Source: Nemertoderma westbladi (lineage: Eukaryota > Animalia > Xenacoelomorpha). Taken from it: a DNA stretch of 64,000 bases. Below, one piece after another: positions 23,271 to 51,473 of the stretch. The stretch's first letter is position 1; the number at the start of each line of letters is the position of its first letter. The position numbers and the translations under genes were made by a program. The notes below the pieces were generated by a model that ran no database searches, was not told the DNA's origin, and was given only the letters and a program-made list of their open reading frames with translations. The stretch lies in NCBI GenBank assembly GCA_032718475.1, contig JAUCBJ010000564.1, positions 1-64,000 of the forward strand. Direction: 5' to 3'.

Positions 23271-23329
23271 CTATAATAAATAAACACAACATCAGTGAAT
23301 TGGAATGAAAGGAATGAATTATGACTCAA

Positions 23330-27808: not shown

Positions 27809-27914
27809 TGATGAATTATTTCACTATAGAATAGCATTTGTAGTATAACTTAAAAACTTTCGAAAATCCGGCGCATTTTGATTAAGTTACTTTTAAAACC
27901 CCTAGTTACTTTCG

Positions 27915-27996
27915 TGGCGTAGTGGTCAGATGGTTAAGGCGTTGGTTGCATTACGTAGGTTACGAGTTCGAATCTTGGTCGGGAAATTTGTATTTT
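27915..27996 (+). promoter_or_regulatory. tRNA-derived Pol III type-2 promoter-like module in U3; also at ~53418-53500 and ~62647-62728
   Basis: A box TGGCGTAGTGG 27915-27925, B box GTTCGAATC 27966-27974, T-run at 27993-27996. Confidence 0.6.
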
Positions 27997-28023
27997 GGGG
28001 CAATTTATTTTCATTTGGTACAA

Positions 28024-28200
28024 ATTGGTAAGCCAATGAGGTGCGTACAACGCATCGAACGATGAGTTAGGCCAATCATAGGGCAAGGAATATCTTATTG
28101 CTCCAATGTGAGGCCATGGAATACTCCAGAAGGTTCTAGTGAATTCTATGTCCCAGATTTAGTATATAAAGGGCTGGTTTGCCTTCGGTTATCACTTGTA
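28024..28200 (+). promoter_or_regulatory. LTR Pol II promoter: CCAAT cluster, TATA box, Inr-like site
   Basis: CCAAT at 28033, 28072 and 28103; TATATAAA 28163-28170; TCACTT at ~28192. Same layout in the other two LTR copies. Confidence 0.6.
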
Positions 28201-30609
28201 AAACACAATTGTATTTATCAGTTATCACTTCTTGTTGTCATTTCTTAACTAGTTTCTTGTTGAAACTATGTTAAATCTGTTTGATTATTCTTTCGCTAAA
28301 CTGTAAATACACTGTAAACTTCTGAACATGTTTTTCTTTGGTCCAACTTTGGGACAGCCAAACATCGGGAAGATGGCCGCCTAGACCGTTAGGCCGTCAG
28401 CAACGCAGGGAAAGGATGTCCACAACACGCTAGCGCCCACATTAACTTAGACCGCGCACCCCCTTCGCCCTTCAAAATACTCCACATGCCATGCAGCGCC
28501 CGCTTTATGAGGAAGGTAAGACTTTGTTTGACGCCCTTGCCCGCCGTAAGACCTATAGATTAGGGTAAGCGTGACGCCGTCCTGGGACGCCGCAAAATTT
28601 AGGATCAAATAACTATATTTTAGGCAGAAACCCCCTTTGTCAGTCCTGCAAACCCCTGGGTTACCTGTATACCTCACAGGTATTGCGAGCTATTGCCGTT
28701 CGTCAGTACGCAAGTACATATTAGGTACGGACAGCATACGTTCCATAATTTAGTGATTTGTAGTACTGACTGTTTGGTACCGGTTCGCTCTGTAGAGCAT
28801 ACATTAGTACCCCCCCCCCCCCCCCTGCCTGAAGTTGGTTGTTTGATCAGGCAAGGAGTATTTCTGCTACCGGCACACCGCTTGGCCTAGGGAGGTTTTA
28901 TTAATATCCTACCGCGCCTTGCCATGTACTGATAGGTATTGCTGCTAACTACCGCGGCAACAAAGTTCTAGAATCAAATTTGTATACCAGATCAGCTAAC
29001 GTACGGTAGCGATTAACCCCTATTTCTTATCTTACAACCAGAATCTGGTATTTGTGCCGATCACGGGTGTAGTTACTAACACCGTGGTTGCCCAGTTGAG
29101 TTGTGGATAGGAAGGAGAGAGCTTTGACGTCATTTGTAAGTATAAAGTTCTACAAAACGCGACTAGCTTATTTTAGTAGCTAGCGCACGGTATTATTTCG
29201 GTCAGAAAATCACTAAAACCTAGTGAAAAGATATACACCAAAATTGTTTTATTGTAACACACCCACACACACACGCCCTAAAACATATTTACCCTTAGAG
29301 TTCCTACTAGTTATAGCTTACTTTATATTACTTTAGGCAGAATTTATCTGTATTTGTAAATTAGGATCTGATATTTAGTTATGGCAAAAGGGAGTATTTC
29401 ATTTTGTTATTAAACTGTTGTTTTCTGCTCAGCAGTATTGTTACATTAGGCACGACCCTCTTTAGACTGATTAAGGACAGAGATCAGTATTGTTACGCTA
29501 GTCTGTTAATCCACTAGCTCGTATATAAACCATATAAATCACACCGCGGCAAGTTACTGTATTTAGGACTGTCAGCGATAGTTAGGATTCGCTGCGTGGG
29601 GATTGTTTTCCCGTGAGTTTGGTCTGTTACTGTAACTGTACATCTGCCATACCGGTTAGAGGACAGGTATCCTTTTGTCTAGTTCGTAGGCATTAGACCC
29701 GCCCACGTACATAGAATAGACACCAGGCTCTGCTCCTCGCCAGTAGTAGTTTGTGTATTGTATCTGTTTGTTTAGATATCCTGGACTGGGATTTGTTGTC
29801 AGATACTGTACGAGCCCGTTTCATTACTAGAGTCTTACAGTAAGATACATCGTTACTAGGATCTGGTAAGCGGTATACTACTGGACTTTACGGATAGAGA
29901 TATTCTATAGCTTCGTATTAGTTTTTCCAGTACTCCTCTATGGGAGTCCATGCTGGGCTCTAACTGCTGAGGACACCAAATCTCTGGATGGCACATTCAC
30001 AAGAATGCTACGCCGGGTTCATTGTTAGCTTATCCAATTCCGCTAACACGAACCCACAGAGTGAGCCATAAAGCAATATTGGGAGCCTATTGTCAGCCCA
30101 GTAAACGGGGACAATAGGCCCCAAAGGAGACACACACAATAAGGGTCAGGGGTTACTCCCCTGATAAGAGAGAGAACAGCAAGGGCGAAGGGAAGCACTT
30201 CAGAGGGGGGCAAAGGGTGCCAACAGGGGTATTAACCAATCAGAGGGGGGAAAGGCATCGATTGAGTAGCAATAAGGCCACCGTGCAATATAACCAGTTA
30301 CCAGTAATCATACCGGTCAGTTATTCAGTTTACTCAGTCAGATCAGTAGGGTGGAACGGGGACTTCTGTCACCGTCCGCTACCGCCATTATATATTACCT
30401 ATTGTGTCATACTATATTATATCAACTGTCAGACTATTATACCTTTATACATATTACCCAACATCAGAACTCTTTTACCTTTCACACACGGCGGGGACGC
30501 GTGGATAGAAAACCCAAACGGATAAACCGGGATCCGTAGATCCCGTCACAGTGACAGAACTAGATCCGCCCAGCTGCCCTGACAGTGATAGACTGACACC
30601 AAAGGCGAG

Positions 30610-31842
30610 ATGAGCCGAGAGAAAGGAACGACACCGCCGCGGACCCCGGACGACGATCTAACGATCCGCGAGGCCACGGCGAGACGATACGAACCCACGA
30701 CGCCGGTCGATGCTACGCCGACCACGTCGACGCACGTTGACGCCACGTCGACAACGAGCAACCCGGCGAACCAAGATGTGGGGGGTCGTCTACAACCGGA
30801 GAGCGAGTCGAGGGAAGGAGACGAGAAGGGAGGAGAAGAGAAAGACGAGTCGACGCGGAGCGAGGGTCGACATACCGATGTCACCGGCCAGCCACAGGCC
30901 GAGGACGACGAACGGTCCACCGGAACGGCGACGGTGGGGCCGTCGGTACGACGTCGGACCCGGAGAGACGGAAGAGAGGTCGGCGACGAGGACGTCGGGG
31001 TTTCTGATCGACTTCGACGGGCCTACCTCGCGACCCGGGAGCAACTGAGAGAGGCCAAGGAGGGGGCGAAGATAGACGAGGTGAGACTGAGGAGATGACT
31101 AGGTGAGTCGAACAGATACTTTGATCACCTAGTGCGTTCTGGGCAGGGAGAACTGGCCAGGGAGAGAGCGAGAGGGGTTGCCTTCGAACTGTTTTGGCTA
31201 TGGCAACGTAGGGGTATGGGGCTTGGTGTAGTGTACATAGGGCCATACTTAGTCGATGCCAGGGAATTTAGGTTAGTGGGTTGGAAGAGACCTGGGGAGG
31301 GCGAATCCGAGGTTAATTCCGAGGATTCGGTCTCGTCAGTCGGAGGAAGTTCCGGGAAGCGGGGGAAAGTTAGTAGGACGGAGGGGCGACGGGAGTCTGT
31401 CGCAACCGATAAGTCTGCTACATCCTCCGCAAAAGAAAGAGGGGTGTGGAAGGTAAAACTGATGTTTAAAATAGATGAGGCGGCGTGGGAGCAGAGACAG
31501 TTAGAGTGGCGACTGAGGGATAAAATCGCATCTTTAGAGCGGGCAAGGGAGGATAGAAAGGGAGCCGAGGAGCGTAGAGATTGGGCGGCGAGTCGATCTG
31601 AGATGCTTGCGAGAGAGACGGCCGAGCGAAACATACGAGAGTGCAGAGAGAGAGAAATAGAGGGTGAGCGTGAGCGGGATGATTTGTGTGCCCGGATAGG
31701 GAAGTTTGTGCAATATCGGGCCAAACTAAAACAGCGCCGACTAGAACTGTCGCGGTTGAAAATATCAGAGAGGGAGCCCCCACTTACAAGCACCGAGCGA
31801 GAAAACCAGAACTGGTGTAGCCGTACGGGCGGGGGGGGGTAG
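30610..31842 (+). pseudogene. Element 2 gag-like N-terminal region (charged/coiled-coil), in-frame stop at 31096-31098
   Basis: ORFs 30610-31098 and 31132-31842 share one frame, start 60 nt after the LTR and are R/E-rich. No diagnostic motif. Confidence 0.5.
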
Positions 31843-32156
31843 TAGTAGTACGTCAGAAGTAGTTAATATTAATAGTACCGTAGTAAATAACCCTAATCCC
31901 TTTATTACAGGAAATAATATTTTACCGGGTAGTAGTAATTTAAATTTAAATACAAATACTCTAAATAATAATTTCGATTCAAACCCGCAAAATAATTCGA
32001 ATAATAATTTAAGTTTAGAGAATAGTAGTGACCTAAGTAATTTAAATAATTTAAATAATAATCCCGTTTCAAATTCTAATAATTTAATTGATTTAACAAA
32101 TAATATTGGGAATGGTGCTATTAATATGAGCGTGTCGGACGTACATAACCCGGCAG

Positions 32157-32722
32157 ACAGTGGCCTGGTAGGCCACGTAGTTAGTAGGCAGGAGGTGGCA
32201 GGGTTGAGCCAACCCGACGGCGGCCTGGTAGGCCACGTAGTTGGTAGGCAGGGGGTAGCGGGGTTGAGCCAACCCGAAGTAGGACTGATGGGCCACGCAG
32301 TAGTAGAGAGAGAGGCGGGGGTGAATAGACCCAGCCGTAGTAGAGACAGTGCGTCGACTAGATAGGGGTGTAGAGACGAAGAGAGAGATAGTGAAGTTAG
32401 ATGTGGCGGGTGGGGGGGGGCTACGGGCGCCCCACCACATAAGATTAGTGGCGAGAGAGGGGGGGCAGAGAATGCCCCACAAGAGGGGTGTAGGAGTGTA
32501 ATAAGAGGTAGTGAAGTTAGAAGTGGCGGGTGGGGGGGGGCTACGGGCGCCCCACCACATAAGATTAGTGGCGAGAGAGGGGGGGCAGAGAATGCCCCAC
32601 AAGAGGGGTATAGAAGTGTAGTAAGAAATAGTGAAGTTAGAAGCGGCGGTTGGGGGGGGGGGCTACGGGCACCCCACCGCGAGAGATTAGTAGAGAGAGA
32701 GGGGGGGCAGAGAGTGTCCCAC
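32157..32722 (+). repeat. Tandem repeats in element 2: 60-bp unit x~2.4 and 120-bp unit x~3
   Basis: GGCCTGGTAGGCCACGTAGTT at 32162 and 32222; AGTGAAGTTAGA...GGCTACGGGC at 32390, 32510 and 32630. Confidence 0.85.
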
Positions 32723-34095
32723 AGCCGTCAGCGGATAATGCGCGGGCCGAATTAGGTAAACCGCAACACCCGGCGACGGAGAGTAATAGGGGGATTGCGA
32801 GTATCCCCAGCGGCGTGCGATCGAGCAGAGAGAGGCAGGTTGACGTCGCGAGAGGGCAGGCGAAGCGTCGAGCCCGACCAGAAGAGAGAAGAAGAACAGT
32901 GGAGTTTAACCGGGAGGTCGACGAGAGATCTCACGAGCCGGAATACTACACAGAAAAGAGAAGAAGAGAAGATAGTAGAAGAAGTGTCGCCACGAACGAT
33001 AGCAGTGCGAGGACGGATAACGGACCGTCGATAGTAGAGATGGAGTCAGGGAGCCAGTGGGGTCGAACTTCGGGAGATTGCCGTCGCCCCGGAGAAACGC
33101 ACCGCACGCCAGGAGGGGGGTACAGGACGTACCAGTACGAAGAAGAGAACAGGAGAGGGGATCGAGGGGAAACTTCCCGACGGGATATAGCTGCCGATCG
33201 AGAGTACGGTAGTCGCGGGGAGATTCGAGATTCGCGAAGAATAAACTTCGGTTCGGAAGGGCACATGCAGACTGCAGGACATACTGTAGGCCTTACTGCA
33301 CATACTATTATAGGCCATGCTGGGAGAGATAGAGTAGGCGATGGGGTAGCGCGAACGACGGGATTAAACCCGGAAGTCGCGGAGTACATACCGGTAGGTA
33401 GGCGAGAGGTAGGTAGGCCTATATCGGTACAGCAGCATGACTATAATACACAGGGACATAACATATATCCAGGGGAGGGGGGAGTTATTGGAGATAGACG
33501 TATGGGCCCCAATGTATTAACATCAACCCCAGTACCAAACATACCGGCTGGGGGGGGACAGGGTGACATTCCCCCATCACAATATCGACAATATACCCCA
33601 ATAGGAGCGAGAACATCGAACCCCTTGGACGAGAACAGGTCGTGCGGACAGTCACCACCACACGCGGCCGTACAGGGGACTGCTAGTCCACAGTTAGGTG
33701 GTAGCAGGGCCACACCGTGGCAGGGACAGAAAGAAAATAACACCAAAAATAAACACAATCCCAATATACCCAGTAGGCCGAGTCTAGACAACCAAAACAT
33801 TAAATCGGTACATATAAACCTAAGCGCGATACGTGAAGGACTATACAGGAAACGCTATAATCCAGGATTCCAATGTCAATTACATCGGGACGGAACCCAT
33901 AAGACCAGGAGTTGCAAGTACTGGCAAGCGTTGCCCAAACGAGATCGTGTAGCCTACACAGACGCAAACGGACTATGTCATCGATGTGTGGTAAAAGGAC
34001 ACAGATCCGGAGAGTGTTGGAAAGGGAGAGGATGTGAAAGGACTAAACCAGGGGCAGAGAAGCCCATTGCAAACATAAGGGAGTCGGGAAAGTAG
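32650..34095 (+). CDS. Gag C-terminal ORF with BEL/Pao-type zinc knuckles
   Basis: CQLHRDGTHKTRSC-x-R-x-LCHRCVVKGHRSGEC-x-C, the tandem Cys/His array typical of BEL/Pao gag. Confidence 0.7.
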   Translation: MGGGATGTPPREISRERGGAESVPQPSADNARAELGKPQHPATESNRGIASIPSGVRSSRERQVDVARGQAKRRARPEERRRTVEFNREVDERSHEPEYYTEKRRREDSRRSVATNDSSARTDNGPSIVEMESGSQWGRTSGDCRRPGETHRTPGGGYRTYQYEEENRRGDRGETSRRDIAADREYGSRGEIRDSRRINFGSEGHMQTAGHTVGLTAHTIIGHAGRDRVGDGVARTTGLNPEVAEYIPVGRREVGRPISVQQHDYNTQGHNIYPGEGGVIGDRRMGPNVLTSTPVPNIPAGGGQGDIPPSQYRQYTPIGARTSNPLDENRSCGQSPPHAAVQGTASPQLGGSRATPWQGQKENNTKNKHNPNIPSRPSLDNQNIKSVHINLSAIREGLYRKRYNPGFQCQLHRDGTHKTRSCKYWQALPKRDRVAYTDANGLCHRCVVKGHRSGECWKGRGCERTKPGAEKPIANIRESGK

Positions 34096-34439
34096 AAGGA
34101 GGCGTGTTGCATACACACGCAGGACGGACACAGTGCGAGGGGGCATTGCACGGGCAGACACCGCGTATACCGAGGGACGAGCGGGGGTCGTCGAGGGCCC
34201 TAATGCCAGCGCACATACGAAGGGGGAGGCCAGCAAAGGTGGCACCGAAGAGAGTGTGGCGAAGAGTTAGAGGACGTATAGGAGGGCAGCAGGAGAGTGC
34301 CTACCGGAAGAAGGGGCACGTGAGAGTTTTTAGTCGTCCAAAGTTTTGGACTGAGGGGGGTGGGAATGAGGGCGAGACGCCCTTCCCACGCACAAAATAT
34401 AAAATAATTATTTAATTAAATAAAATAATTAAATAATAG

Positions 34440-36200
34440 AGTAGGTAGAAGTTAGGTAGTTAGGAGTTATTTAGGAGGTACGTAGTACCTAGAGTCAGAG
34501 TTAGTTAGTTAGTCAGTTAGCACTGATAGTTAGTGTTAGAGTAAGAGTTAGAGAGTCTCTCTACCGTTAGAGAGTAGGAGTTAAGGGGTACGTAGTACCG
34601 TTAGAGTTAGTAAGAGTTAGTAGGTACGTAGTACCTAGTTAGAGAGTTAGTAGGTACGTAGTACCTAGTTAGAGTTAGAGTTAGTAGGTACGTAGTACCG
34701 TTAGAGAGTTAGTAGAGTTAGTAGGTACGTAGTACCTAGTTAGAGTTAGAGTTAGTAGGTACGTAGTACCTAGTTAGAGTTAGAGTTAGTAGGTACGTAG
34801 TACCTAGAGTTAGAGAGTTAGTAGGTACGTAGTACCTAGAGTTAGTTAGAGAGTCAGTAGGTACGTAGTACCTAGTTAGAGTTAGAGTTAGAGGGTACGT
34901 AGTACCTAGTTAGAGAGTTAGTAGGTACGTAGTACCTAGTTAGAGTTAGAGTTAGAGGGTACGTAGTACCGTAGTTAGAGTTAGAGTTAGAGGGTACGTA
35001 AGTACCGCTAGTTAGAGTTAGAGTTAGAGGGTACGTAAGTACCGGTTAGAGAGTAAGAGTTAGAGGGTACGTAGTACCGTCAGTTAGTGGAGCTGGAGTA
35101 GTGAGAGGGTACGTAGTACCGCTAGTTAGAGTAAGAGTTAGAGGGTACGTAGTACCGTTAGTAGAGAGTTAGCAGAGTAGAGTTAGTAGTAGAATGGTTG
35201 TGGGCACCGTAAGCGCCACATAGAAAGTAGTAGCAGTAGAGGGTTGTGGGCACCGTAAGCGCCACGTAGTTAGAGTTAGTAGGGAATGCGCTGAACTTAG
35301 TGGGGCACGGGCGTGATGATGTGTGTGATGTAAGAGCAGGGTATGTTAATTAGAGTTAGTGGGAGTTAGAGGTTAGTAAGAGGGTACGTAGTAGTACCGG
35401 TTGTGGTTGTGGGCACCGTTAGCGCCACGTAGATAGAGGTAGAGTTAGTAAGAGGGTACGTAGTACCGGTTGTGGTTGTGGGCACCGTTAGCGCCACGTA
35501 GAGAGTTAGTAGAGTTAGAAGGTGCCGTGCACAAGAGGTGCCGGGCACAAAAAGAGTTAGTAGAGTTAGAAGAGAGTTAGTAGAGTCAGTAGTAGTTCAC
35601 ATAATTAACGTACCCACTCTGCCGGCACTCAGAGCGTCACGTGTAGGCGATGAGACGTAAAGGGGATGTAGAGGAGTAGAGACGGGCACATAGGGTGCCA
35701 GAGAGTAGAAGAGTAGAGACGGGCACATAGGGTGCCAGGTAGTAAGTTAGAGAGGTAGTAGTGTAGTAGAGAGGGCACATAGGGTGCCAGGTAGTAGAGT
35801 AGAGCAGAGGGGGCACATAGGGTGCCAGGTAGTAGAGCTAGAGAGGTAGTTGAGTAGTAGAAGGGCACATAGGGTGCCAGATAGTAGAGTGGTTGTGGGC
35901 ACCGCAAGCGCCACGTAGTTAGAAGAGTGGAGTAGAGTTAGTAGAGCTAGTTAGTAGAGTTAGAGAGCTAGTGGAGTAGAGTTAGCAGAGCTAGTGGAGT
36001 AGAGTTAGTAGAGCTAGTTAGCAGAGTTGGTAGACTCAGAGGAGTCAAGTAGAGTTAGTAGAAGTAGAAAGTTAGTAGGAGTTAGTTAGACTTAGTAGAG
36101 AGTTAGAGTCAGTAGAAAGTTAGAGGCTCTCAGTTAGAGCTAGAAGTAGTAAGAGTTAGTAGTTAGCAGAGTTAGTTAGATAGTTAGAGTTAGTAAGCAG
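34440..36200 (+). repeat. Purine-rich GTTAGA backbone with arrays of short hairpins in the 3' region of element 2
   Basis: About 20 GGTACGTAGTACC, 5 GTGGGCACCG(T/C)(A/T)AGCGCCAC and 5 GGGCACATAGGGTGCC units separated by C-poor spacers. Confidence 0.85.
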
Positions 36201-37438
36201 TAGGTAGATAGTATGATAGCACAGGGGTAGCATTAGAGATTAAAGCCTTAGGGAGTGACAAGAGAGTGGAGAGGTAATAGTGCGGAGTGCGAAGAGAGCG
36301 TGGGCGCAATTCAAGTGTGGGGGAGGAGAAGTGAGAGGAAGAGTGTGGGACGAGGAGGTCCGGGGGTATGCGAGAGTTGGAGTAGAGTGGTGAGAGTGTT
36401 GGGGAAACAAAAATTGTGTGAGAGAAGCGCACGATCGGCCCGACACGAGACGCCAGAGGGTAGTGACATCATACCCATAGGGAGCGGCCTGGAAAGCCGA
36501 CTCCGAAAAAATATACCCACCCCACACCCGATGCTAGATCGGGATCCAGCGGAATTGTAGCGCACTTGAGTTGGATGCTATCTTCTTACCGGGAAGATAG
36601 CATGGGGGGGAGTGTTAGCTTATCCAATTCCGCTAACACAAACCCATAGAGTGAGCCATAAAGCAATATTGGGAGCCTATTGTCAGCCCAGTAAACGGGG
36701 ACAATAGGCCCCAAAGGAGACACACACAATAAGGGTCAGGGGTTACTCCCCTGACAAGAGAGAGAACAGCAAGGGCGAAGGGAAGCACTTCAGAGGGGGG
36801 CAAAGGGTGCCAACAGGGGTATCAACCAATCAGAGGGGGGAAAGGCATCGATTGAGTAGCAATAAGGCCACCGTGCAATATAACCAGTTACCAGTAATCA
36901 TACCGGTCAGTTATTCAGTTTACTCAGTCAGATCAGTAGGGTGGAACGGGGACTTCTGTCACCGTCCGCTACCGCCATTATATATTACCTATTGTGTCAT
37001 ACTATATTATATCAACTGTCAGACTATTATACCTTTATACATATTACCCAACATCAGAACTCTTTTACCTTTCACACACGGCGGGGACGCGTGGGCAGAA
37101 AACCCAAACGGATAAACCGGGATCCGTAGATCCCGGTTTATCCATTGTGTCAAGTACAATGCACACATCTCCAACCAGACACTATATAACATTGGAGGTG
37201 TCTCATTGGTTCCCCCAAGCTTGACACTAGAACAAAATCGCCTCCGCTTTGCAGGACATTGCTTTCGCCGTGAGGACCAGCCAGTGCATAATCTTGTACT
37301 TTGGCAGCCTCATGGAGTGAATAAGCATGGTGGACAGCCCATGACTTTCTTGAGACGCATCTTAAAGGACACTGGCCTTGAAGATGCGGATGATCTAGCA
37401 AATGTCATGGGTGATAGGGAGTTGTGGCGGTGCAATTT

Positions 37439-38932
37439 ATAATAATAATAATAATAATAATTTCTTTATTGATCCTTAAAACCAGAGAATTTATGATAAA
37501 AAATTGCACTGGGCATTCAATGTATACACACTAAATGATTATTTGGAACAATAGCGTCAGTGTACAGGAGCAACTATGTTACTCCTATGTATGTAATACC
37601 GGAAATAAGACATGTGTAAGTACAGTAGATATAATAAATAAATAAAAAAAAATTTAGTTGAGCACAAATATTACTACCCCCCCCCCCCACCCCCGCTGAA
37701 CCATGCAGAAACCTTGGTTTCGTTATGGAGCAGTTACCCCCCCCCCCCCCCCCCCCCCCCCCTTCTGGCAGACAATAAAGAGCCTCCAGCTAAGTTACTT
37801 CTTCTCGACTGTGTTTACTTAGAAATATATTTTTCAAATGTCGTTTAAAAGTTGCAAGGTTTGGTGACTTGATTACATCGATATGGAGCGAATTCCATAA
37901 TTTTACCGATTTCACAATTATACTATCGTGACCAAACCTATTTTTAGATTTTGGAATAACGATATTCCCAGTTCGTGGATTTAACCTAATATTGTTTTTT
38001 GCTAAAAACGGCAGATCCAAAGTTTTAAAAGCTTCTGTAAGCTTATGCATATATTTGTAAAAGTATATAAGCGCATAATATTCTCGAACTGCAGAGAGTA
38101 ACGGAATTTCGCCTTTCTGCCTCAACTCCGTTCCACTGCTGTCGGTAATTTTCTTCCCGAAAATAGTGCGTAATGCGTAATTTTGTACCTTTTCAAATTT
38201 ATAAAGCAGTTCCTTTGAACCATGTTTGTCATGGAGAGACACAAGCAGCTGACAACAATAATTATGATAGGGCATAGTAAGCGTTTTATATAATTGCAAT
38301 TTAGTTTTATTGGGCAATTGACCCTTTATTATTCGTAAACAAGAAATGGTAAGAGTCATTTTTTGGATCATTTTCCCTATGTAATCTTTCCAATTTAGCT
38401 CGTTATCAATGTTCACTCCCAGATATTTTACTGATGGAGATTGTGGAATAGGTTCAGGGCAGCCTACATTTAATTTTATGGATGAGAAGTCAGCTCTATT
38501 TTCTGGGCTGATTTGCTTCGGAGATAAAAGGAGAAATTCCGTTTTGTCTGGGTTCAGTTTCAAATGAGAATCATTAAATATTTTTTGAATTTTCTGAACA
38601 TTCGACTCTAACAATTTTGTAGCTTGTTCTGGATCTGAGTCAGCCACATAAATAACTGTATCATCAGCATACTGTATAATTGAAACATTTGTCAGTTGTT
38701 CTGGAATGTTATTGGTATATAGCATGAATAATAGAGGCCCTAAAATGGTACCTTGGGGAACGCCCCTTGTTTCAGTTAGCCAATCAGAAAAAGTATTTTC
38801 TACTTTAACACGTTGCTTCCTTTTCAATAGGTAATTTTGTATGAGGTTCAGTGCAGTCGAGTGGAAACCTAAATGTTTGAGTCTGTGATTCAAAATGTCA
38901 TGATTTATAGAGTTGAAAGCTTTGCTTAGGTC
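37439..38932 (-). mobile_element. 5'-truncated L2/CR1-group non-LTR element (RT C-terminal half, 3' UTR, (ATT)n tail)
   Basis: DLSKAFNSINH, GVPQGTILGPLLF, YADD, LNPDKT, KYLGV (ORF 37790-38893). Minus strand ends AATAAAGAA(ATT)n at 37470-37439. Confidence 0.9.
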
Positions 38933-40941
38933 TTTTGTCGATAAGCCGGCACAGCATTCTTAAAAATGCAGCTGCAATGCAGCATGCCGATCCTAGATTC
39001 GTATTAGTAGATTTGTAGGCTGTAGGGTAGTCCCTACCGTAGAGGGCACATCAGTGAGGTATATATTATACAAATTAGTGTATAGTATTGATCCCAACCG
39101 TGAGGTCTCTCACATACTGTTAGCTATTGTAAGTAGGAGATATTTAAAAATTTAAGGTTAGTAAAATTTAGTAATTTGTAGAACATCCCCTGCTTCAGTA
39201 GGCCTTTAGGGTAGCTAGTAGTTTCGTATTTAATATTTGACTAGCTAATAGTTAGTTTGTAGCATTTGTTTTACGCCGTGTGTGTGCGGTGTTACTTTCG
39301 GTACTTGAAAAGGTACATAGGGTTTAAAGACCAAGTTGTATCGGTACCTAGGAAGATTTTTCGTAGCGTAGAAGTAAAACTCTCACCTTCAACTTTTCAG
39401 GACTCAAGGACTCATTTCTGGACCGCTTCGAGGATTAGACCGCTTTTCGCAATGTTTGGGAGACAAAAAATTCGTCCGTGCTGCCAAAAACGGAACGACC
39501 CACGTCCGGTTTGTATTTGGGAATTTGCACGACTGGAAGATCAAAGGAGCGTAAGTTTTACGACTCGCGTCATTCAAACTTAAGAAAGCACAGTAGTACT
39601 CAAAATTTGTGGGTTTCACTGTCTATTAGTAGTGTTGTTGGTACTTATTTTCCCGTTAGACGTTGCTGTTTTGCCTATTATTTGTACTTGTTGATCTACA
39701 TTTTGGAAACGTATACCGTTATCTCATTTATTCATACAAATTTAGCCGGTAGGCTAGATTATTACTTATTTTATTATATACTTTGTTAGTTTATTTGTAC
39801 CGGTTAGGGTATATATATGATATATATATATATCAAGGTAAGTTTGACATTTGGACATTTCGACATTTTGACATTTCGACATTCTGACTTTGTTGATTTA
39901 TTTGTACCGGTTAGGGTATATATATACTATATACCAAGGTAAGTTTGACATTTCAACATTCAGATACTTTGACATTTTATTACCCGTACTTGACGTATAT
40001 AATAAGACATGAGTGACACACCACATTCGACTCGATACCCCCCTACCGACTATGACTCGTGCGACCCGGACAGATCGACAGTAGACGAACCAAGAAGGAG
40101 AACCCGAGATTCTACCGATGTCACACCACGTGCATCGCCGGTACGTCGCAACATACGCCGCAACGTGTGGCGACGGCAGAATCGAAGATTTTCTTACCGT
40201 CCCGCAGACTAGATCGCGGGAACTGGACATGGTAAGTTCGACTGGAAGCCAGGAGAACGTTATTAGGAGTATAGGAGGACACATGGCCCAGATTACTCGA
40301 AACTTCGGAGAAGGTTTTCGCCTTTTACGCGAGTTAACCGCCCCGATGTTGAGATACGAGTTCTACGCCTTACAGGTAAGGATAGAAAGTAGGGTACATG
40401 CTTCCATAGATAAACTTAAAGGTTTACACGAACTTGCAGAGTTGCGTGGCAACAACTTTTCTCAGGTAAAGATAATCGATAAGTTGGTAAGTGCGAGGGA
40501 AAGCCTCATTCAGTTTAAGTCGGTTGTAGGATCGACTCAGCAAGAAAAACTCTACCAACTGTTAGGTGAGTCAGTTTCAGACGCGTTGTTACAACCCGAA
40601 GAGGAAGAAGAACTATACTGCCTGGATGGGAGGTTAGGGACGCTCACCAATTTTCTTCGTAGATGCAGAGTACCGATCGAAGAACCGAAAGTTGTACCGA
40701 GAGGGACGACGGAAGTTCTATCTACGGAAGGCTCGCGAGCCTACCAAATTCCACCACTGGATAGATCGTTCGTTAGTGTACAGAGCGACGTTGGCGACGT
40801 TGGCGACGTTAGTAGAACAGCGTCTGGAATTACTCGACAACAACAGGAGGTCGCACGCCGACAACAAGTCGTCGAGGAAGAAGCGCAACGGCAGATGGCG
40901 CAGATCGCCATCGAAGGAGAAGGACAGCGCAGAGATATTGT

Positions 40942-43900
40942 TGTGAATACAACAATAAGCACTCTTATACTTATATCATAGTATTATAATAGACTATATT
41001 ATCATGTAGTAATACACAGATACACTGACTGAGCAGACATCCTGTCAGTCGTAGTAACACTCACAGTACTGCAGTACCGGTAAGCTTCCTTCCCTACTCC
41101 TAGGCCTAAGTCAGTACACTGGTATATATTTAGTTAATCAGAGTCAGTCATATACAGTAGTAACAATCTCCCCCTAACTAGAACAATAGTAAACATATAT
41201 TAGACAAATATGATAATGAGAGTAAAGAGTTTATTATCAAATAATGATTAAATATATACAACAGTATGAATGATAATGATCTCCAATCTCCCCCCTTCAA
41301 GTTTCAATAGTGTTAATAGTTAGATGTTGAAAAGTTCTAGATTAAGATCATCCTAGCCATGAAGACTGAGGAAGCATACCCGAACGCAAAACATCTCTCA
41401 ATAGATATTTTGATGCTCCCTTTTTTGTGAGCGAGTCAGCTAGTTGCGCCTTTCCATCCGTCCAATTGATGTAGAGTTCTTTACGTTCCACTTTCTGACG
41501 TAGGAATGCTATATCGATTCGCAATCCTCTCTCCTGTATAGCATTGGTTGTTCGAACGGTCGAATAGAGACTTTTGTTGTCGATTATACAACATAATGGA
41601 AGTCGAATTCCATGGATATCTTGGATAATCGCTCGAATTTCTTCCCCTGCATCGATCCCTTCAACCAAAGCGAGTGTCTCCGCAGTTCTGCAGCAAGTGT
41701 ACTTCTCACTACTCTACGGAGCTTTCTACTTTGCCACGTCAGTGGAACACATGTCCCTTTATCATTGACAAGGAAGAGTATAAATGCTCCTTGCGATGAA
41801 CCATCTGATAAGTTTGCATGTGAGGCATCAGTGAATAGTTGAAGATGACATTGTTCAACATTCCCCATGTCTGGAAAAATAAGATCCAGTTTTTCGTATT
41901 TCAACTCCTTGATAATCTTATTCGCATAACGAATGTCACCAACAGTAGCATTTTTTATGCAGACACTAATCATACATGTATCATATGATACATCAGGTCT
42001 CGTATGTGTTGCTAGCCACAATAATTTCCCTAAAATCCCCTTCAATTCTCTCTTCTCAGATTCGGATATTGTTTCTTCTGCATAACCTTTGGGTACTGGC
42101 ATTTCTTTCAGTAATTCTACAAAGTTTCTTTGTCCCACTTTAACACAATCAGCTGTTTGCTCTATATCAAGTCCAAGATATCTGAACTTTACCTCTTCTT
42201 GATGACTTAGCTTGAATATACTGTGAATCCCATTAATAACCTTTCGCTCAAACTCCAAAGTTCCTCCATACATTACATCATCTACATGCACCACAACTAT
42301 CCCTGTGATCGTATTATTCTCCCTATATAAGAAAAATGCCGGATCAAATTGTGATACAGTCATGCCATGACAACCTAATTCACCCTTCAGACGTTCATAC
42401 CACATCCTTGGAGCATCACCCAACCCATATACACATTTGTTTAATTTCCATAGTTTGCCTTTATCAAATTCTTTTGGTGGAACAATGTATACCTCTCGTG
42501 ATATGGGATCCCCTTGAAGGAATGCTGCGCTGACATCAAAAGACTTCAATTTCCATCTATTACTCATTACAGTCACTAATGCCAACCTCAAACTTTCCTT
42601 GCTGCATGTAGGAGAATCACACCGAATATCTGCTGTTTCTTCAAAACCTCTGGCACACAACCTTGCCTTAATTGATTTCTTTCCTTTTATGTCCTTCTCT
42701 GTAATAACCCATTTCACCGAAATGCATTCCTGTCCAATATCTTCTACCTCTGAAAACACTCCATTTATTTTCCAATTATCAATTTCTTTTTCTTTGGCTC
42801 TTATCAACTCTAATTCAGTATAACAGTGACTAAATTCACCAGATAGAGTTTCTCTTGTACCACATTTTCGCTTCACTCCTTCAAGATACATGACATCATT
42901 CTCACCAACACATCCTTCGTCATTATCTGCTATATCAGTACTTCCTCCTTGATTGTCATCTACTTTGACTACTTCTTTTGTTTTCCAACTGCTTGCATAT
43001 TCGGTCCAATCCACGCACTTAGCAGACTGTTCACCATTCACTTTTATGTTGACATAATTTTTGTATTTCCCTGTCTGTTTTTGTTTACTTATAATATCAG
43101 CTTCCTTCCACTCATCATCTTTACGAGTCTTAACAAGTACCATTGTTCTATTTTTTGGCAATTCTGTGCTGTCTTTTAATGATCCTGTACCTTCTCGCTC
43201 TACCTCGGTACTCAAGTTCATATTACTCATATCATTTGTCACCCCATTGTCAATTGTCATTGTTTCAGAAATACTAAGATCATTTTGAACCACATTGTCG
43301 TTTGTTGTTGTCCTTATCACATTGTCGTTTTCCATTGTCACAGGGTCACTTGCACTTGTAACTTGTCTCAAATGACATGGATGCACCCTATAGTACTGAG
43401 ATTGGTTTTTTACTAATACTGTCTGGCCCTCTTGCCCCAAGACTTTTCCTGGCCCATGCCACCTGTTCTCCTTGCTGGTTTTATAAAATACTTTGTCTCC
43501 ATTTTCATAACGAACATCGTTACTTGTCCTCACCTGGTGTCTCAAAGCTTTACGTATCTTAGTGCTAGATTCAGCTTTAACATAGTTTTCACGTGCTTTA
43601 TGCATTGCATTGATGTTCTCTGCTATCAATTTGCTATATGACTTCCCTTCAAGTGCAGGTAGTTCATCCACTAATATGTTTGGGAACGTTGGATTTCTAC
43701 CAAATGCCAATTGGTTTGGGCTATACCCATGCACCATCTGCAGACAATTTTTTGCACTCAGCGCCCAATACAGCGCTGTTTCGAGGTCACACCCTGAATC
43801 CTCATATGTTTTCTCCAGTGTTTCTGCCAACACTGCATTGTGCCGCTCTACCACCCCATTTGAAAATGGCGATTCAGCAGATGACACTTGGATTTCAATA

Positions 43901-46125
43901 TTAAAGTTTTCACACATGTCTCTATAATGACTGTTGGCGAACTCACCCCCGTTATCCGACATGAATTTTCCTGGTGAACCAAAGCACCACAGCCACGTCT
44001 TATATAATCCTTTGATAACCTGTTCCTTGTGTTTTGACTGAATCAGACACGCCCCTGAAAATTTTGTCGCCAAATCTATCAAATGCAAAATATATACATT
44101 TGGTCGCAGCACCTTTAAATCCATTGCAACTACCTCATTGAAATCCTGAGCCCTTCTTAACCCAACAACTGGCCTCGGTTTTGGTTTTTTATAACGTTGA
44201 CACACTTCACATGTCGAACATACATTTTCAACACAATCTGAAATCCTTTTTTCCAATATACCTGCATCACTCAACAAGCTTTTAATTTTCACTGCATCTG
44301 CATGGGCAAACTGGCGATGCAGCTTGACAATATCCTTTCCTAGTTCTGACTCACTTTTCTCACTTAGGGCGGTTGCTTTAAAAATCAGATTTGGTTTACT
44401 GTGTGGAACATCTGATATGGCCCGTCTATAGTTATTTAATGGCAAACAATAATGCCCAGCGGGTGAGATATCCAACTGTAATTTTATGCCAAAAACTTCA
44501 ATAGTATTCTCCAAAAATTTAATAATAGCTCCTGTTTTCCTAAGCGATGTATTACTCAACAACAAAGGAATATCTGCATCAACAACATGGCAGTTAATAT
44601 ACACCTTTGTGTGTTTTAGAAATGCTGGAAACCGCACGCACAATAAAGCCGTTATGGGTTTGCCCACCCCAAACTTGAATGGTGTATAGCTCGGCTTAGA
44701 TTCCATTTCATTAATCAAGTCATTGTTAAGTGTCTCTTTATACCTGTCCAGCCAATTTCTGCCACAAACATTTTTTGTACACCCACTGTCAATCACTGCA
44801 CAGGAAAACGTTTCCTTTGTCAGATAACATTCTGATACATCCATATCACCATCTTGATTATCCGAACATCCAAAAAATGAGTAAAAAACATTATCACCAC
44901 TCTCTGTACCTAACCCTCTGTCAGCATCAGCACTACTGGTAAGCCCATCAGCAACATTGGCACAATAAGCCGTACTTCTCTCTGTACAATCAGCTGCATA
45001 ATGCGTTGTACTGTTACAGACAAAACACTGAGTAACATTGCCCCTAAAGTCCATCCGATTTCGCGGATACCTTTGATTACCAGTAGATCCGCCACTGGCT
45101 GCACCCCTATTACTGGCTCCAATCATACTCCTACCTTGACTTTGACCTCTGTATCCACTGTAATATCCCCGTTGAGACCTTCCTCTGTCCCCCGAGTAAC
45201 CCCTATTGTTACCCCTACTATATGGGTACCTGCCTCTACCATAGCTTTGGTAATTAAAGAGTGCCTCTTCACTCCCATCCTCTGTTTTTACTCTTACAGC
45301 TTGTTCATTCTCCACTCGTTCTATCACGCTAAGCCTATCACTATCATTTTTTTGCATCAATGTAACATCAAATATTCTCAGCAATGTATCAGACATACCT
45401 TCATAATTAATCTCTGCGGTAGTAGCCAGTGCCAAATCCCGCTTTTCTGACGTCACATTTGCACTTTTTAGCAAACGGTAGGCTAATACTGGCTCCGGAA
45501 GTACAATCTTGTACTTTTTCATTTTTTCCACTAACCTGTCAAAGTCCACAACAAAATCCTTCATAGATATCTCCCGTTTTCTCACCAAATCTTCAAACTC
45601 CGCATATGTCTGGTAGGCCGCCTGAGAATCCTTTTTTAAATATATCTTATCCAGTTTATCAATGATATTCTGTAATCCCTCTGGCTGCTTCAGTACATCG
45701 ACACCAAGTTTACCTGCCACATCTCTGGGTTTCCCCTGAAGCTCTAAATAAACAGCCATGCCATGCTTCTGTTTCACCAGGTTCGTTAGTTCAGCCCAGA
45801 CCTGAATATCCAACTTCCATCTCTCATAATCATCATTCTCCTTGAACGCTGGTGGCGATTTCCATGACGTTACCGGTGGTGCTGCCATCGCTCTGCTACC
45901 ATGTGAATACAACAATAAGCACTCTTATACTTATATCATAGTATTATAATAGACTATATTATCATGTAGTAATACACAGATACACTGACTGAGCAGACAT
46001 CCTGTCAGTCGTAGTAACACTCACAGTACTGCAGTACCAGTAAGCTTCCTTCCCTACTCCTAGGCCTAAGTCAGTACACTGGTATATATTTAGTTAATCA
46101 GAGTCAGTCATATACAGTAGTAACA
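40942..46125 (-). mobile_element. Ty1/Copia element, GalEa-like, recent
   Basis: 224-bp LTRs 40942-41165 and 45902-46125, one mismatch seen. PBS TGGTAGCAGAG (initiator tRNA-Met) at 45901-45891. PPT AGGGGGAGAT at 41175-41166. Confidence 0.95.
41348..45888 (-). CDS. Copia gag-pol polyprotein (Zn knuckle, protease, integrase, RT, RNase H) with one frameshift in RNase H
   Basis: ATG at 45888 just after the PBS; CFVCNSTTHYAADC, IDSGC, H..H..C..C, VAMDL, SDNGGEF, NGVVER, KARLCARGFEE, YGLGDAPRMW, HVDD, FTDAS. Frame changes at STLAAE (~41690) into ORF 41348-41668. Confidence 0.93.
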
Positions 46126-47269
46126 AGTTCGACTGGAAGCCAGGAGAACGTTATTAGGAGTATAGGAGGACACATGGCCCAGATTACTCGAAACTTCGGA
46201 GAAGGTTTTCGCCTTTTACGCGAGTTAACCGCCCCGATGTCGAGATACGAGTTCTACGCCTTACAGGTAAGGATAGAAAGTAGGGTACATGCTTCCATAG
46301 ATAAACTTAAAGGTTTACACGAACTTGCAGAGTTGCGTGGCAACAACTTTTCTCAGGTAAAGATAATCGATAAGTTGGTAAGTGCGAGGGAAAGCCTCAT
46401 TCAGTTTAAGTCGGTTGTAGGATCGACTCAGCAAGAAAAACTCGACCAACTGTTAGGTGAGTCAGTTTCGGACGCGTTGTTACAACCCGAAGAGGAAGAA
46501 GAACTATACTGCCTGGACGGGAGGTTAGGGACGCTCACCAATTTTCTTCGTAGATGCAGAGTACCGATCGAAGAACCGAAAGTTGTACCGAGAGGGACGA
46601 CGGAAGTTCTATCTACGGAAGGCTCGCGAGCCTACCAAATTCCACCACTGGATAGATCGTTCGTTAGTGTACAGAGCGACGTTGGCGACGTTAGTAGAAC
46701 AGCGTCTGGAATTACTCGACAACAACAGGAGGTCGCACGCCGACAACAAGTCGTCGAGGAAGAAGCGCAACGGCAGATGGCGCAGATCGCCATCTGGAGA
46801 AAGGAGAAAGACAGCGCAGAGAGGATGTAGCGAAACTTGCGAAACTTCAAGCGCAGGCTGAGTTCGAAGCATCAGAGATGCGGAGACTGGAGGAGGACTT
46901 AGCGCGAGAAGCGGCCGTGGCGGCAGCAGCCGACGAGTTAGCACGACAGGCGGCAGCTGACGAGCTAGCACGACAGGCAGCGGCGGCAGCAGCCAACGAG
47001 CTAGCATGACAGGCAGCGGCTGACGAGCTAGCACGAGTTGCGGCGGTAAACGCAGCTGAGTTAGCACGGAAGAAAGCAGCATCCGACGCTCGTGCCAAGT
47101 TCGAGGTGCGACAAATAAACGCTCGTTTAGCTATACAGGAAGCGGAGTTAGCGGTACAACAAAAGGAAGCAGATCAACGCGAAATGGAGATGCAGCTCCA
47201 GTTCGAACTAAATCGCAGATCGCGCGAGGCGGCGAACGCGCAAGAGGACTGTACGCGCTTTTGAAGACC

Positions 47270-48400: not shown

Positions 48401-49343
48401 ACTGATTATACCCGCAAAAGCTTTTACAAGGACCTCGAACTCGACGCGAGAGATAGATCTATAAGGTCTCGAGCTGGACACGACTTGTCTGCCCTGGATC
48501 GCATGGAGACTCGATATCGCGGAATTCAGAAGCGAATCGAGGAAGGAAGTGTGGGAGCGATAGACCGAGGAGAAGAGTTCGTCGAGGATTACTGTAAACG
48601 TTTTCCCCAAGTTATTCCTATGCTCAAACCCACGACTCTAGTAAAACCGGTTATGGTTGCAAAACCGAAGGAAATATCACCCGTGCAAGGTAATAGGTTT
48701 GTTATGTTGGAATCAATTCCGCAGCCACGAGCGACTTCATCGCCGATTCTCGCAGGTAAGATAAGTAGTCCACCTACTGTAAGCCGTAGTTTACTTGTAG
48801 AGAGAGACGAACCTGCGTTTATGACAGTAAAACAGGTGAGTAAACCATTACAAGTTAAACCTGTGATGTGCTGCGCGAACCCAGTCATTTATAAACCTAC
48901 AGTAGAACTTAACTCCGATGTTTTTACTAGACCTCTCACCCAATGTTTATCGAGAGCTACGACTTCGTGGAAGGCTTGCGAGCCTGCCGAACAACGGAGA
49001 GCCGTAGATCCCAGACCACAACGAACTCGACCAAGAATAATACCATACCTAGACAACCAACACCATACCAGAAGGTGCCGAGATAAAAATCGACAAGGTT
49101 GTCAAGTCCAAAGCGAAAGCCAACGCCAAGGTCAAGAGGAAACAAGGACGGACGAAATCTGATGACCTGGACGCCAGACCTGACATTACGCCAGACGTCT
49201 CACCAGACACTCGACCAGATGCTTGTACGAATCTTTCACCGGATGTTCCGCGGGAGATTTCACCAGACGTTTCGCCGGATTGTTCACCAGATTACTCGCC
49301 AGACTATTCACTAGAAGCGACACCAGATTGTTCTCCGGATTGT

Positions 49344-51473
49344 TTGCCAGATTGTTTGATGGAACTCTCGACAGAATGTCTACCGGACGTCTCACCAGAC
49401 TTTCCACCAGACATCTCGACAGATTGTCCACCAGACTTTGGACCAGACTTTAGACCAGACTTTGGACCAGACTTTCTGACAGAAGTTACGCCAGACAGAC
49501 ATTGGGACCGACGACAAGACATTTCGCTGGATGTTCCGCGCTATGTCTCACCAGACGTCTCTCCAGACTGTTCACCAGACGCTTCACCAGACTGTCTACT
49601 AGACACTCCACTAGAAGACCCATTGGAGCGGACTATTAGAAACTTACCGAATTTGACTTCTTTGAACGACAAAGGTGTGGCCACAGCGATCACACTCCGC
49701 TCGAAGAAGGTACTTGACTTACCACCTACAGGTAAACGTGTGACTAAGGTTAGGAAGCTTACAGGCTCACAGGAACACACTGGTACTGTAGAGTTGAAAC
49801 CGTTACTGCCAGTCGACACACTAGGAGCAGACGGTAAAGGTAAGACCATAGAGATTGACATACTTGGGGACTCAGACAAACCTACCGGAAGGCCCGTGGG
49901 CCTACCAAGTCTAGACAAGTATCCACAATACGACTATACCTTACCTGATGACGTCACTAACACTTACGTTGACCGGATAGTTAACCTAACTAGATCATGG
50001 AGTGACGCGTGCCGCAAGTTAGCATGGCTCAAACGTTTGAGACAATATGCCAGAGGCAAACGCGACTTTCCTAGAAGACTTACCTTAAAGGAAGTTGGTC
50101 ATTGTGAAGTTGATATCATTCGCCATTATCAATTGCGATATTTCGCACAAAAGTTCACAGCGATCAACCAAGGTAAACAGATTAAGTCTTCACCGATTTT
50201 GAGTTGGAGTCCGATTATTTACCGGGGCTTACTTTGTCACAAGTCCAGACTCCAAAACATCGACTTTGCACTAGACTTTAGGTATCCTATCATCATACCG
50301 CAACACCATGAATTACAGCGCACTATGATACTGGACGCACATGTACAACTCAAACACGTGGGTAGACACCACTGTCTATCACACTTACGCTCGAGGTTTG
50401 TACTGATTAGACCTAGTAAGGCACTGAGTTCGGTAACACGGAACTGTATGATTTGTAAGAAGGTGCACGCGAGGATAGGACACCAAGAAATGAGTAAACT
50501 ACCACTAGCGAGATTACAGGCATTTAGACCCCCTTTCACTGAGACAGGGATAGACTGCTTTGGACCCATAATCGCGAAACGCGGAAGGGTACAGGTAAAA
50601 CGTTGGGGATTGATCTTCACTTGCATGGCCAGCAGAGCTGTCCATATAGAGCGTGTGACAGATTTGACTACCAATGCCTTTATCCTAGCCTTACGGCGAT
50701 TTATCGCTAGACGTGGATTGGTCAAATCCATTTACTGCGACCAAGGGACAAACTTTGTGGGTGCACGGAACGAAATAACCAGAGCTTTGAGAAAGTTGGA
50801 CCAAAACCAGATTTCCGAGGAACTACGTCCTCACCGTATTGTTTGGTATTTTAATACTCCAGACAGTCCGTGGAGAGGCGGCGTTTGGGAAAGGCTGATT
50901 GGCTCAATTAAAACAGCTATGGCTAAAGTAGTACCGACGCAACACATTTTGACAGACGACCAACTGACGACGTTACTAATAGAAATCGAAGCGATTTTGA
51001 ACACTAGACCGATCGCTTTGATCCCAGACAATAACGACGCACAGTTTGCCTTGACACCAGTGCACCTGCTTATGCAGGCGCCGACGACATTGTTGCCCGT
51101 TTCGGTACCCGTTGATAGCGATGGATACGGCAACAAAGCTTGGAAAATCACTCAATTGCTTGCAAATAAATTCTGGGAAATATGGCAGAAATATTATTTG
51201 CCCTCTATTTCAACCAGAACCTCTTGGTATCTTAATACCCGATGTTTGAGACGCGGTGACCACGTTTTATTGGCTGAAGCCAATCTGAAAAGACGGTTTT
51301 GGCTGACTGGAGTCATTTTGACCACGCACCCTACATCTGGTGTAGTGAGAACAGTTACCGTAAGGACTATCAACGGTCGTACCGTAGACAGATCTGTACA
51401 ACGTCTCGTGCTCCTTGAGGAGACTAGAAATGAGACAGGAGACTACAAATCTCCACCCAATATTAGTAAATAG
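49344..51473 (+). CDS. BEL/Pao integrase ORF (HHCC, DDE core, C-terminal domain) preceded by Pro-Asp repeats
   Basis: AHVQLKHVG...CMICKK; PPFTETGIDCFGP; FTCMASRAVHIE; CDQGTNF; PWRGGVWERLIGSIK; EAILNTRP; FWEIWQKYYL. The N-terminal PDCSPD repeat comes from CCAGAC tandems at ~49170-49610. Confidence 0.92.
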   Translation: MPDCLMELSTECLPDVSPDFPPDISTDCPPDFGPDFRPDFGPDFLTEVTPDRHWDRRQDISLDVPRYVSPDVSPDCSPDASPDCLLDTPLEDPLERTIRNLPNLTSLNDKGVATAITLRSKKVLDLPPTGKRVTKVRKLTGSQEHTGTVELKPLLPVDTLGADGKGKTIEIDILGDSDKPTGRPVGLPSLDKYPQYDYTLPDDVTNTYVDRIVNLTRSWSDACRKLAWLKRLRQYARGKRDFPRRLTLKEVGHCEVDIIRHYQLRYFAQKFTAINQGKQIKSSPILSWSPIIYRGLLCHKSRLQNIDFALDFRYPIIIPQHHELQRTMILDAHVQLKHVGRHHCLSHLRSRFVLIRPSKALSSVTRNCMICKKVHARIGHQEMSKLPLARLQAFRPPFTETGIDCFGPIIAKRGRVQVKRWGLIFTCMASRAVHIERVTDLTTNAFILALRRFIARRGLVKSIYCDQGTNFVGARNEITRALRKLDQNQISEELRPHRIVWYFNTPDSPWRGGVWERLIGSIKTAMAKVVPTQHILTDDQLTTLLIEIEAILNTRPIALIPDNNDAQFALTPVHLLMQAPTTLLPVSVPVDSDGYGNKAWKITQLLANKFWEIWQKYYLPSISTRTSWYLNTRCLRRGDHVLLAEANLKRRFWLTGVILTTHPTSGVVRTVTVRTINGRTVDRSVQRLVLLEETRNETGDYKSPPNISK

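What the first reader, a model, noticed from the sequence alone, without database searches (positions are those of the whole stretch)
28661..39065. Candidate tRNA-independent self-priming in BEL/Pao elements: the PBS position pairs with a hairpin in the element's own LTR
Seen: element 1 has no TGG-type PBS. Its LTR (ends 39053) is followed directly by GTGAGGTATA, the exact reverse complement of TATACCTCAC at 28668-28677 (also 54167-54176), extendable to 12 bp with one G-U. That sequence occupies the loop of hairpin TACCTGT-ATACCTC-ACAGGTA. Independently, element 2's LTR (ends 30550) is followed by GTGACAGAA, the exact complement of TTCTGTCAC at 30364-30372 (also 36954-36962), again in an LTR hairpin downstream of the TATA-like box. 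In both, pairing stops exactly at the LTR edge, where a primer 3' end must sit. Naive chance is about 2190/4^10 and 528/4^9, roughly 0.002 each. Both also repeat the PBS-like word 35-46 nt downstream (39100, 30585). Established: Tf1/sushi Gypsy elements self-prime with the first ~11 nt of their mRNA. Inference: these BEL elements may prime from an internal LTR segment. I know of no such report for BEL/Pao, but the literature needs checking.
Basis: partly seen in the sequence, partly recalled or inferred. Interest (0 to 1): 0.88.

Follow-up and report, generated by a model that had tools for sequence, protein, structure and literature searches.

The report
Self-priming BEL/Pao retrotransposons, often splice-built
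Two defective BEL/Pao jumping genes lack the usual tRNA landing site and carry there 9-12 bases that match their own terminal repeat, and most readable relatives show the same match, usually split by an intron-like stretch, so this branch likely starts copying itself with its own (often spliced) RNA.

Summary
Both elements are non-autonomous BEL/Pao-type elements. Taken alone the matches are modest: chance 0.003 for element 1 and 0.0007 for element 2 at the LTR edge.

The family test is strong. In 11 of 13 outside elements without a TGG site, 11-15 bases at or just after the 5' LTR are complementary to their own LTR. None of 14 TGG-type controls exceeds 7 (p=4e-6). In 8 of the 11 the match exists only across a predicted GT-AG intron in the LTR. 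A second set of 35 loci agrees (p=2e-12), and sister families show compensatory changes.

In the window's two elements the match is unsplit. Element 1 is the weakest case: the segment lies 1,296 nt from the LTR end, looks like a splice acceptor, and is changed in a sister LTR. Priming, cleavage and splicing are inferred, not shown.

I found no paper on this in 10 searches. The scan noted it before on other genomes.

The parts
27809..29921 (+). Element 1 5' LTR, first part (starts TGATG; left target duplication ACGAG inside a 15-bp satellite)
28662..28682 (+). Hairpin (7-bp stem, 7-nt loop) holding element 1's candidate primer; also reads as a pyrimidine tract plus CAG (acceptor-like)
28666..28677 (+). 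Element 1 candidate self-primer (10 Watson-Crick bp at 28668-28677, 12 with one G-U)
29922..38997 (.). Insertion that interrupts element 1's 5' LTR: plus-strand LINE fragment, element 2, and a minus-strand LINE with an RT ORF (37790-38959); 10-bp duplication at 29912-29921 / 38998-39007
30023..30550 (+). Element 2 5' LTR (528 bp, TG...CA)
30364..30372 (+). Element 2 candidate self-primer (9 bp), in hairpin 30350-30380, 178 nt from the LTR end and about 20-45 nt after TCAGT initiator-like repeats
30551..30559 (+). Element 2 primer-site position (no TGG); a further helix 30565-30571 can pair with 30349-30355
32641..34095 (+). Element 2 gag-like ORF with a BEL-type triple Cys-His region; no pol found in element 2
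36613..37140 (+). Element 2 3' LTR (second primer copy 36954-36962; terminal bases altered into a perfect fold-back)
38998..39053 (+). Element 1 5' LTR, last part (ends CATCA)
39054..39065 (+). Element 1 primer-site position (no TGG)
40942..46126 (-). Nested Copia element (225-bp LTRs, 1,446-aa ORF) inside element 1
49053..51473 (+). Element 1 ORF with BEL/Pao integrase (DUF5641, H2C2); no RT, RNase H or protease found in element 1
53282..55472 (+). Element 1 3' LTR, intact (second primer copy 54167-54176; right target duplication ACGAG)
62505..64000 (+). LTR of a sister subfamily (about 85% identical) in the same satellite; hairpin stem kept, loop changed; its primer site lies outside the window

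Best explanation
Elements 1 and 2 are defective BEL/Pao-type retrotransposons whose primer-site position matches their own LTR instead of a tRNA, and they likely belong to a branch that primes reverse transcription with its own RNA. Shown: no TGG site; a 9-12 bp match that starts at the LTR edge; the same match, typically 11 bp and nearly always opening with GT, in most readable relatives; an intron-like GT-AG stretch splitting it in most of those. Inferred steps: (1) The transcript starts in the 5' LTR, upstream of the segment. (2) In intron-bearing families host splicing joins the two halves; intron-less LTRs, as here, carry the segment ready-made. (3) The segment anneals to the primer site, probably with help from the nucleocapsid, because local hairpins compete. 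(4) The RNA is cut 3' of the terminal AC, probably by the RNase H of an autonomous partner as in Tf1. (5) RT extends the new 3' end across U5-R. (6) The intron in the 3' LTR copy usually stays unspliced and is inherited; occasional splicing gives intron-less LTRs. My odds: about 0.8 for the family, 0.7 for element 2's segment, 0.55 for element 1's.
For: Two-LTR set: 11 of 13 outside non-TGG elements have 11-15 bp, 12 of 13 have 9 or more; 0 of 14 TGG-type reach 8; Mann-Whitney p=4e-6. Nulls: 11 or more in 0.12% of 1,650 leader windows and 0.12% of 868 swapped pairs. With stricter splice-site rules the count was 9 of 13. 8 of the 11 matches cross a GT[AG]AG...YAG intron of 76-697 nt. Second set of 35 loci: a match of 10 or more at 13 of 142 GT positions within 0-5 nt after ACA, against 1 of 1,190 other GT positions (Fisher p=1.8e-12); 10 of the 13 are split. 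Compensatory changes: L068/L070 (exon end CAC/TAA, primer site GTG/TTA), L008 and L006 against L031, L033 against L025. L041 has an acceptor before the segment in one LTR and the joined form in the other. An AATAAA/ATTAAA lies 0-93 nt after the segment in 10 of 13 outside LTRs listed, as strand transfer would need. TGG and self-matching elements fall on two sides of one branch (SH-aLRT 93), element 1 on the self side. The ICTV profile knows only tRNA priming for this family (PMC8742986).
Against: No RNA evidence of splicing, cleavage or priming. Element 1: the segment is 1,296 nt from the LTR end, against 44-216 in the other 14 listed. It ends 2 nt before a CAG in an acceptor-like context, with GTAAG donors 110-160 nt upstream, so it could be spliced out. 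In the sister LTR the loop is changed: 7 of 10 aligned matches, as low as in 20% of windows. Three other 10-bp matches to this long LTR occur in the next 446 nt. Element 1's integrase is a long branch (at most 42% identity to anything) and FastTree left it unresolved near the TGG side. Element 2: only 9 bp, and in folds of 30318/30335/30345-30640 the primer pairing has probability 0.02 or less; its BEL assignment rests on a zinc-finger match at E about 1e-5 among 120 BEL proteins. L092 misses and L163 has one mismatch. The splice rules were relaxed once after seeing the first result. Outside loci are related and some share a source.
Confidence: 0.74

Rival explanations
1. The pairing is a real RNA structure but not a primer: a leader switch that controls packaging, translation or a splice donor at the LTR edge, while some other RNA primes.
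For: Element 1's post-LTR sequence reads like a splice donor (CA|GTGAG). Competing hairpins suggest a switch. Covariation proves pairing, not priming.
Against: Most relatives start GTT, GTC or GTGG, which are poor donors. The pairing always begins 0-5 nt from the LTR end, where a primer 3' end must lie. No TGG-type site is seen there.
Confidence: 0.13
2. The family mechanism is real, but element 1's 10-mer is chance or a decayed relic (part of a 3' splice site), and its primer is another sequence.
For: Outlier distance, acceptor-like context, changed in the sister LTR, chance 0.03 with free offset.
Against: Chance 0.003 at offset 0. It ends in AC against GT like the relatives. No better contiguous or spliced candidate at the edge. 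The hairpin stem is kept in the sister, so the loop may co-vary with a primer site I could not see.
Confidence: 0.35
3. A host tRNA half or other small RNA primes, and the LTR match is incidental.
For: Half-tRNA priming exists in Copia lineages (PMC6317226, passages). The host tRNA set was not available to test.
Against: The post-LTR sequences differ between families and match only their own LTR (swap test), whereas 8 of 14 TGG controls share one motif, TGGTCCTTCGAGCCGGAT. Compensatory changes are not expected with a host primer.
Confidence: 0.05

Closest known systems
Tf1/Tf2/Tj1 and the Tf1/sushi group (Ty3/gypsy), self-primed reverse transcription
   Same: No tRNA site; the primer site is complementary to a segment of the element's own 5' LTR, which RT is reported to cut free (PMC4600332, PMC5341516, passages). 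The length of about 11 nt is recalled for Tf1, not from a call.
   Different: Different superfamily. In Tf1 the primer is the 5' end of the mRNA. Here TATA-like boxes lie far upstream in most LTRs, so the segment looks internal, and in most relatives it is split by a predicted intron.
Predicted self-priming plant lineages Tcn1 (gypsy) and TAR/Houba/Osr-1 (copia)
   Same: Predicted by the same rule: 10 or more bp complementary to the LTR, starting 0-5 nt after it (PMC6317226, passages).
   Different: Plants, other superfamilies; no split primer is described in the passages read.
tRNA-primed Belpaoviridae (ICTV profile; TGG-type controls here)
   Same: Integrase, Cys-His region, TG...CA LTRs, 5-bp target duplication.
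   Different: The ICTV profile describes an 18-nt site for tRNA-Arg or tRNA-Gly (PMC8742986, whole text). These elements have none.
Fungal GalEa Copia conserved hairpin site
   Same: A tRNA-less primer-site position (PMC5445492, passages).
   Different: There a conserved palindrome with no LTR complement found; here family-specific sequences that match the LTR.
Cer7 of C. elegans (recalled; papers not held)
   Same: As I recall, a BEL-type element proposed to encode its own primer RNA.
   Different: As I recall, a tRNA-like RNA in the internal region, not an LTR segment. Unverified: searches gave no text on it.

Membership tests
BEL/Pao (Belpaoviridae) | LTRs with TG...CA ends and short target duplication | tested here: met
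   Element 1: TGATG...CATCA and a 5-bp duplication. Element 2: TG...CA on the 5' LTR; 3' end altered.
BEL/Pao (Belpaoviridae) | BEL-type integrase | tested here: met
   Element 1: DUF5641 E=1e-17; of 1,316 hits the 120 listed carry DUF5641 and most also PF05380. Element 2 has no integrase.
BEL/Pao (Belpaoviridae) | Triple Cys-His region in Gag | tested here: inconclusive
   Element 2 matches the region at E about 1e-5; not found in element 1's ORFs.
BEL/Pao (Belpaoviridae) | pol order PR-RT-RH-IN | tested here: inconclusive
   PR, RT and RH not found in either copy; both are non-autonomous.
BEL/Pao (Belpaoviridae) | 18-nt primer site for a host tRNA 3' end (ICTV) | tested here: not met
   No TGG after either 5' LTR.
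Tf1-type self-priming | 10 or more nt complementary to own LTR, starting 0-5 nt after it | tested here: met
   Element 1: 10 (12 with G-U); 11 of 13 relatives. Element 2 has 9 and falls one short.
Tf1-type self-priming | Primer is the 5' end of the mRNA | tested here: inconclusive
   No start-site data. TATA-like boxes lie 84-697 nt upstream in 8 of 15 LTRs listed, including intron length, which suggests an internal segment.
Tf1-type self-priming | RT/RNase H cuts the RNA duplex to free the 3' end | not testable with these tools
   Needs biochemistry.
Tf1/sushi group (Ty3/gypsy) | Ty3/gypsy-type pol | tested here: not met
   Integrase is BEL/Pao.
Sinbad/Suzu lineages | Groups with the named reference elements | not tested
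   Reference sequences not available. Schistosome and fish proteins fall on the same side of the tree; the label is inferred from hosts (PMC554778, passages).

The most novel reading that the evidence does not exclude
A whole branch of animal BEL/Pao retrotransposons has replaced the tRNA primer with a primer assembled by the host spliceosome at an exon-exon junction inside the LTR, so splicing of the 5' copy and retention of the 3' copy license replication. Elements 1 and 2 are an intron-less offshoot in which a hairpin takes over the job of masking the primer.
Probability: 0.6. Interest if true: 0.92.

Novelty: new variant of a known kind. Interest (0 to 1): 0.8.

Why it matters
Belpaoviridae replication is described as poorly understood and tRNA-primed (PMC8742986). 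A self-made primer would be a further independent origin of self-priming, after the gypsy and copia cases. A primer that exists only after splicing would tie reverse transcription to host RNA processing in a way I found described for no LTR element. It would explain why these elements have no recognisable primer site and why many have long LTRs with introns, and it gives exact positions for RNA ends and splice junctions that can be checked in existing RNA data.

Tried and rejected
No whole genome is held, so other copies and host tRNAs could not be searched. Two scans of viral contigs found no relative. No RNA holder was listed; X6 is only a guess at RNA and covers little. Laying contigs showed no GT..AG joint in either LTR among the joints listed (15 of 24) and no variant in the primer or primer-site bases among the rows listed (40 of 120); both tables were cut, so this is no evidence. 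ARAGORN on the window and Rfam on 27800-56000 found nothing. Finding LTR ends by terminal inverted repeat alone was too noisy. L077's apparent junction lay inside an ORF and was dropped. The 11 loci nearest element 1 or the branch point in the tree gave no readable LTR pair. No closer integrase than 42% was found. No spliced primer better than the contiguous one exists at the edge of elements 1 or 2. Literature: 10 searches found no report of self-priming or a split primer in BEL/Pao. The original Tf1 and Cer papers were not held. Subscription journals, Repbase reports and supplements were not seen.
Full report
Anatomy. The window holds nested animal retroelements in a 15-bp satellite. Element 1 spans 27809-55472, with 2,191-bp LTRs (TGATG...CATCA) and a 5-bp target duplication. 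Its 5' LTR is interrupted at 29922-38997 by a LINE fragment, which holds element 2 (30023-37140) and a second LINE. A Copia element sits at 40942-46126. Element 1 keeps a BEL/Pao integrase but no RT, RNase H or protease was found. Element 2 has only gag-like ORFs with a BEL-type Cys-His region. Both need an autonomous partner.

The observation. Pairing starts at the first base after each 5' LTR: 10 bp in element 1 (12 with one G-U) and 9 bp in element 2. Chance is 0.0033 and 0.0007 at offset 0, and 0.029 and 0.0023 with offsets 0-5. Both hairpins fold. The repeated word downstream is exact at 39100 (7 nt) but only 7 of 9 at 30585.

Relatives. No host genome is held. I aligned 66 BEL proteins and fetched 63 metagenome loci and 35 loci from prokaryote genome records that carry animal DNA, then 40 more regions. 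I kept elements whose LTR 3' edge is fixed by aligning their two LTRs: 14 outside elements without TGG and 14 TGG-type. Rows dropped before the count: L070 as a sister of L068 (leaving 13); near-copies of TGG families collapsed to one each; L077 as false; L029 and L191 moved to the second set; all loci without two readable LTR ends. L093 (degenerate site) and L164 (short integrase match) were kept as controls.

The split primer. L041 showed an 11-bp contiguous match. In L076, L083 and L085 the short match began right after a pyrimidine tract and AG. Allowing a GT-AG intron restored 11-15 bp. With strict splice rules 9 of 13 reached 11 or more. After I relaxed the rules, 11 of 13 did, against a maximum of 7 in 14 controls (p=4e-6). 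The same rules gave 11 or more in 0.12% of 1,650 leader windows and 0.12% of 868 swapped pairs. Eight of the 11 are split and three contiguous. L163 has the junction with one mismatch and L092 misses.

Second set. In 35 loci with incomplete LTR pairs I scanned every GT. A match of 10 or more occurred at 13 of 142 positions within 0-5 nt after ACA and at 1 of 1,190 others (p=1.8e-12). Ten of the 13 are split. Three repeat known families (L026, L078, L191), and 21 loci gave no hit; many are truncated but I did not check each. Sister families change both sides together: L068/L070, L008 and L006 against L031, L033 against L025.

Tree. On the integrase tree TGG and self-matching elements differ by one change (SH-aLRT 93), with schistosome and fish proteins and element 1 on the self side (42 rows). 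Element 1 is a long branch, and FastTree on 109 rows left it unresolved near the TGG side. L070, L092, L163 and L164 had no usable integrase and are not in the trees.

Mechanism. The match begins 0-5 nt from the LTR end, is about 11 bp, nearly always ends in AC against GT, and usually has a poly(A) signal just downstream. This is the geometry of a primer. I infer annealing, a cut after the AC by RT-RNase H in trans, and extension across U5-R, as reported for Tf1/Tf2 (PMC5341516, PMC4600332). In intron-bearing families the primer would exist only after splicing of the 5' copy. L041, with an acceptor in one LTR and the joined form in the other, fits occasional intron loss. None of these steps is shown.

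Weak points in this window. Element 1's segment is 1,296 nt from the LTR end (others 44-216), sits in an acceptor-like context, and is changed in the 85%-identical sister LTR, which keeps the stem. Element 2's match is 9 bp and has probability 0.02 or less in predicted folds, although an outer helix next to it forms in two of three folds. The family-level reading is therefore firmer than the reading for either element.

Literature. Whole text read: PMC8742986 (tRNA priming; replication poorly understood). Passages read: PMC6317226, PMC4600332, PMC5341516, PMC5445492, PMC554778 (no mention of PBS, tRNA or priming), PMC3118150 (none of primer, PBS, tRNA or priming), PMC3601003, PMC4558846, PMC8220671, PMC5443660. 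Ten searches found no report for BEL/Pao. Cer7's element-encoded primer is recalled only. Subscription papers, Repbase notes and supplements were not seen and could hold a prior mention.

Earlier scan notes. I reached the splice reading. The look-up returned six notes from other genomes with the same idea; they are unchecked and not counted as support. The one note from this genome did not bear on the question.

Verdict. Self-priming is the best explanation (0.74). It is a new variant of a known kind; the splice-built primer is the surprising part. Interest 0.8.

Noticed in passing
window 53405-53490 (and the 5' LTR copy near 27930-28000): tRNA-like stretch with A-box and B-box-like words near the start of element 1's LTR (box labels recalled). 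ARAGORN and Rfam give no hit.
   Followed up: partly
window 23329-27809, 55473-62504; insertions at 27809 and 62505: Element 1 and the sister LTR both sit in the same 15-bp satellite, at different phases of the unit; possible target preference.
   Followed up: no
window 53246-53274 and 36575-36603; L177, L068: A hairpin of 11-12 bp followed by ATGG lies just before the polypurine tract in both elements; similar hairpins are visible in relatives.
   Followed up: partly
window 37110-37143: The end of element 2's 3' LTR is a perfect fold-back that differs from the 5' LTR end, as a template-switch mutation would give.
   Followed up: partly
window 19383-22193: 937-aa ORF joining a Ulp1-type protease (PF02902) and an RT (PF00078), between repeats 14421-19049 and 16593-23036.
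   Followed up: no
window 40234-40935 and 46125-46822: About 700 bp of element 1's gag-like region is duplicated (97%) on both sides of the nested Copia element.
   Followed up: no
L064-L098, G001-G020: Prokaryote genome records, including one Wolbachia chromosome (L082, L098), contain whole BEL/Pao elements with LTRs; most likely animal host DNA in the assemblies.
   Followed up: no
L083, L036, L086: LTRs with non-canonical ends (TA...AA, TG...TA) that still have 5-bp target duplications.
   Followed up: no
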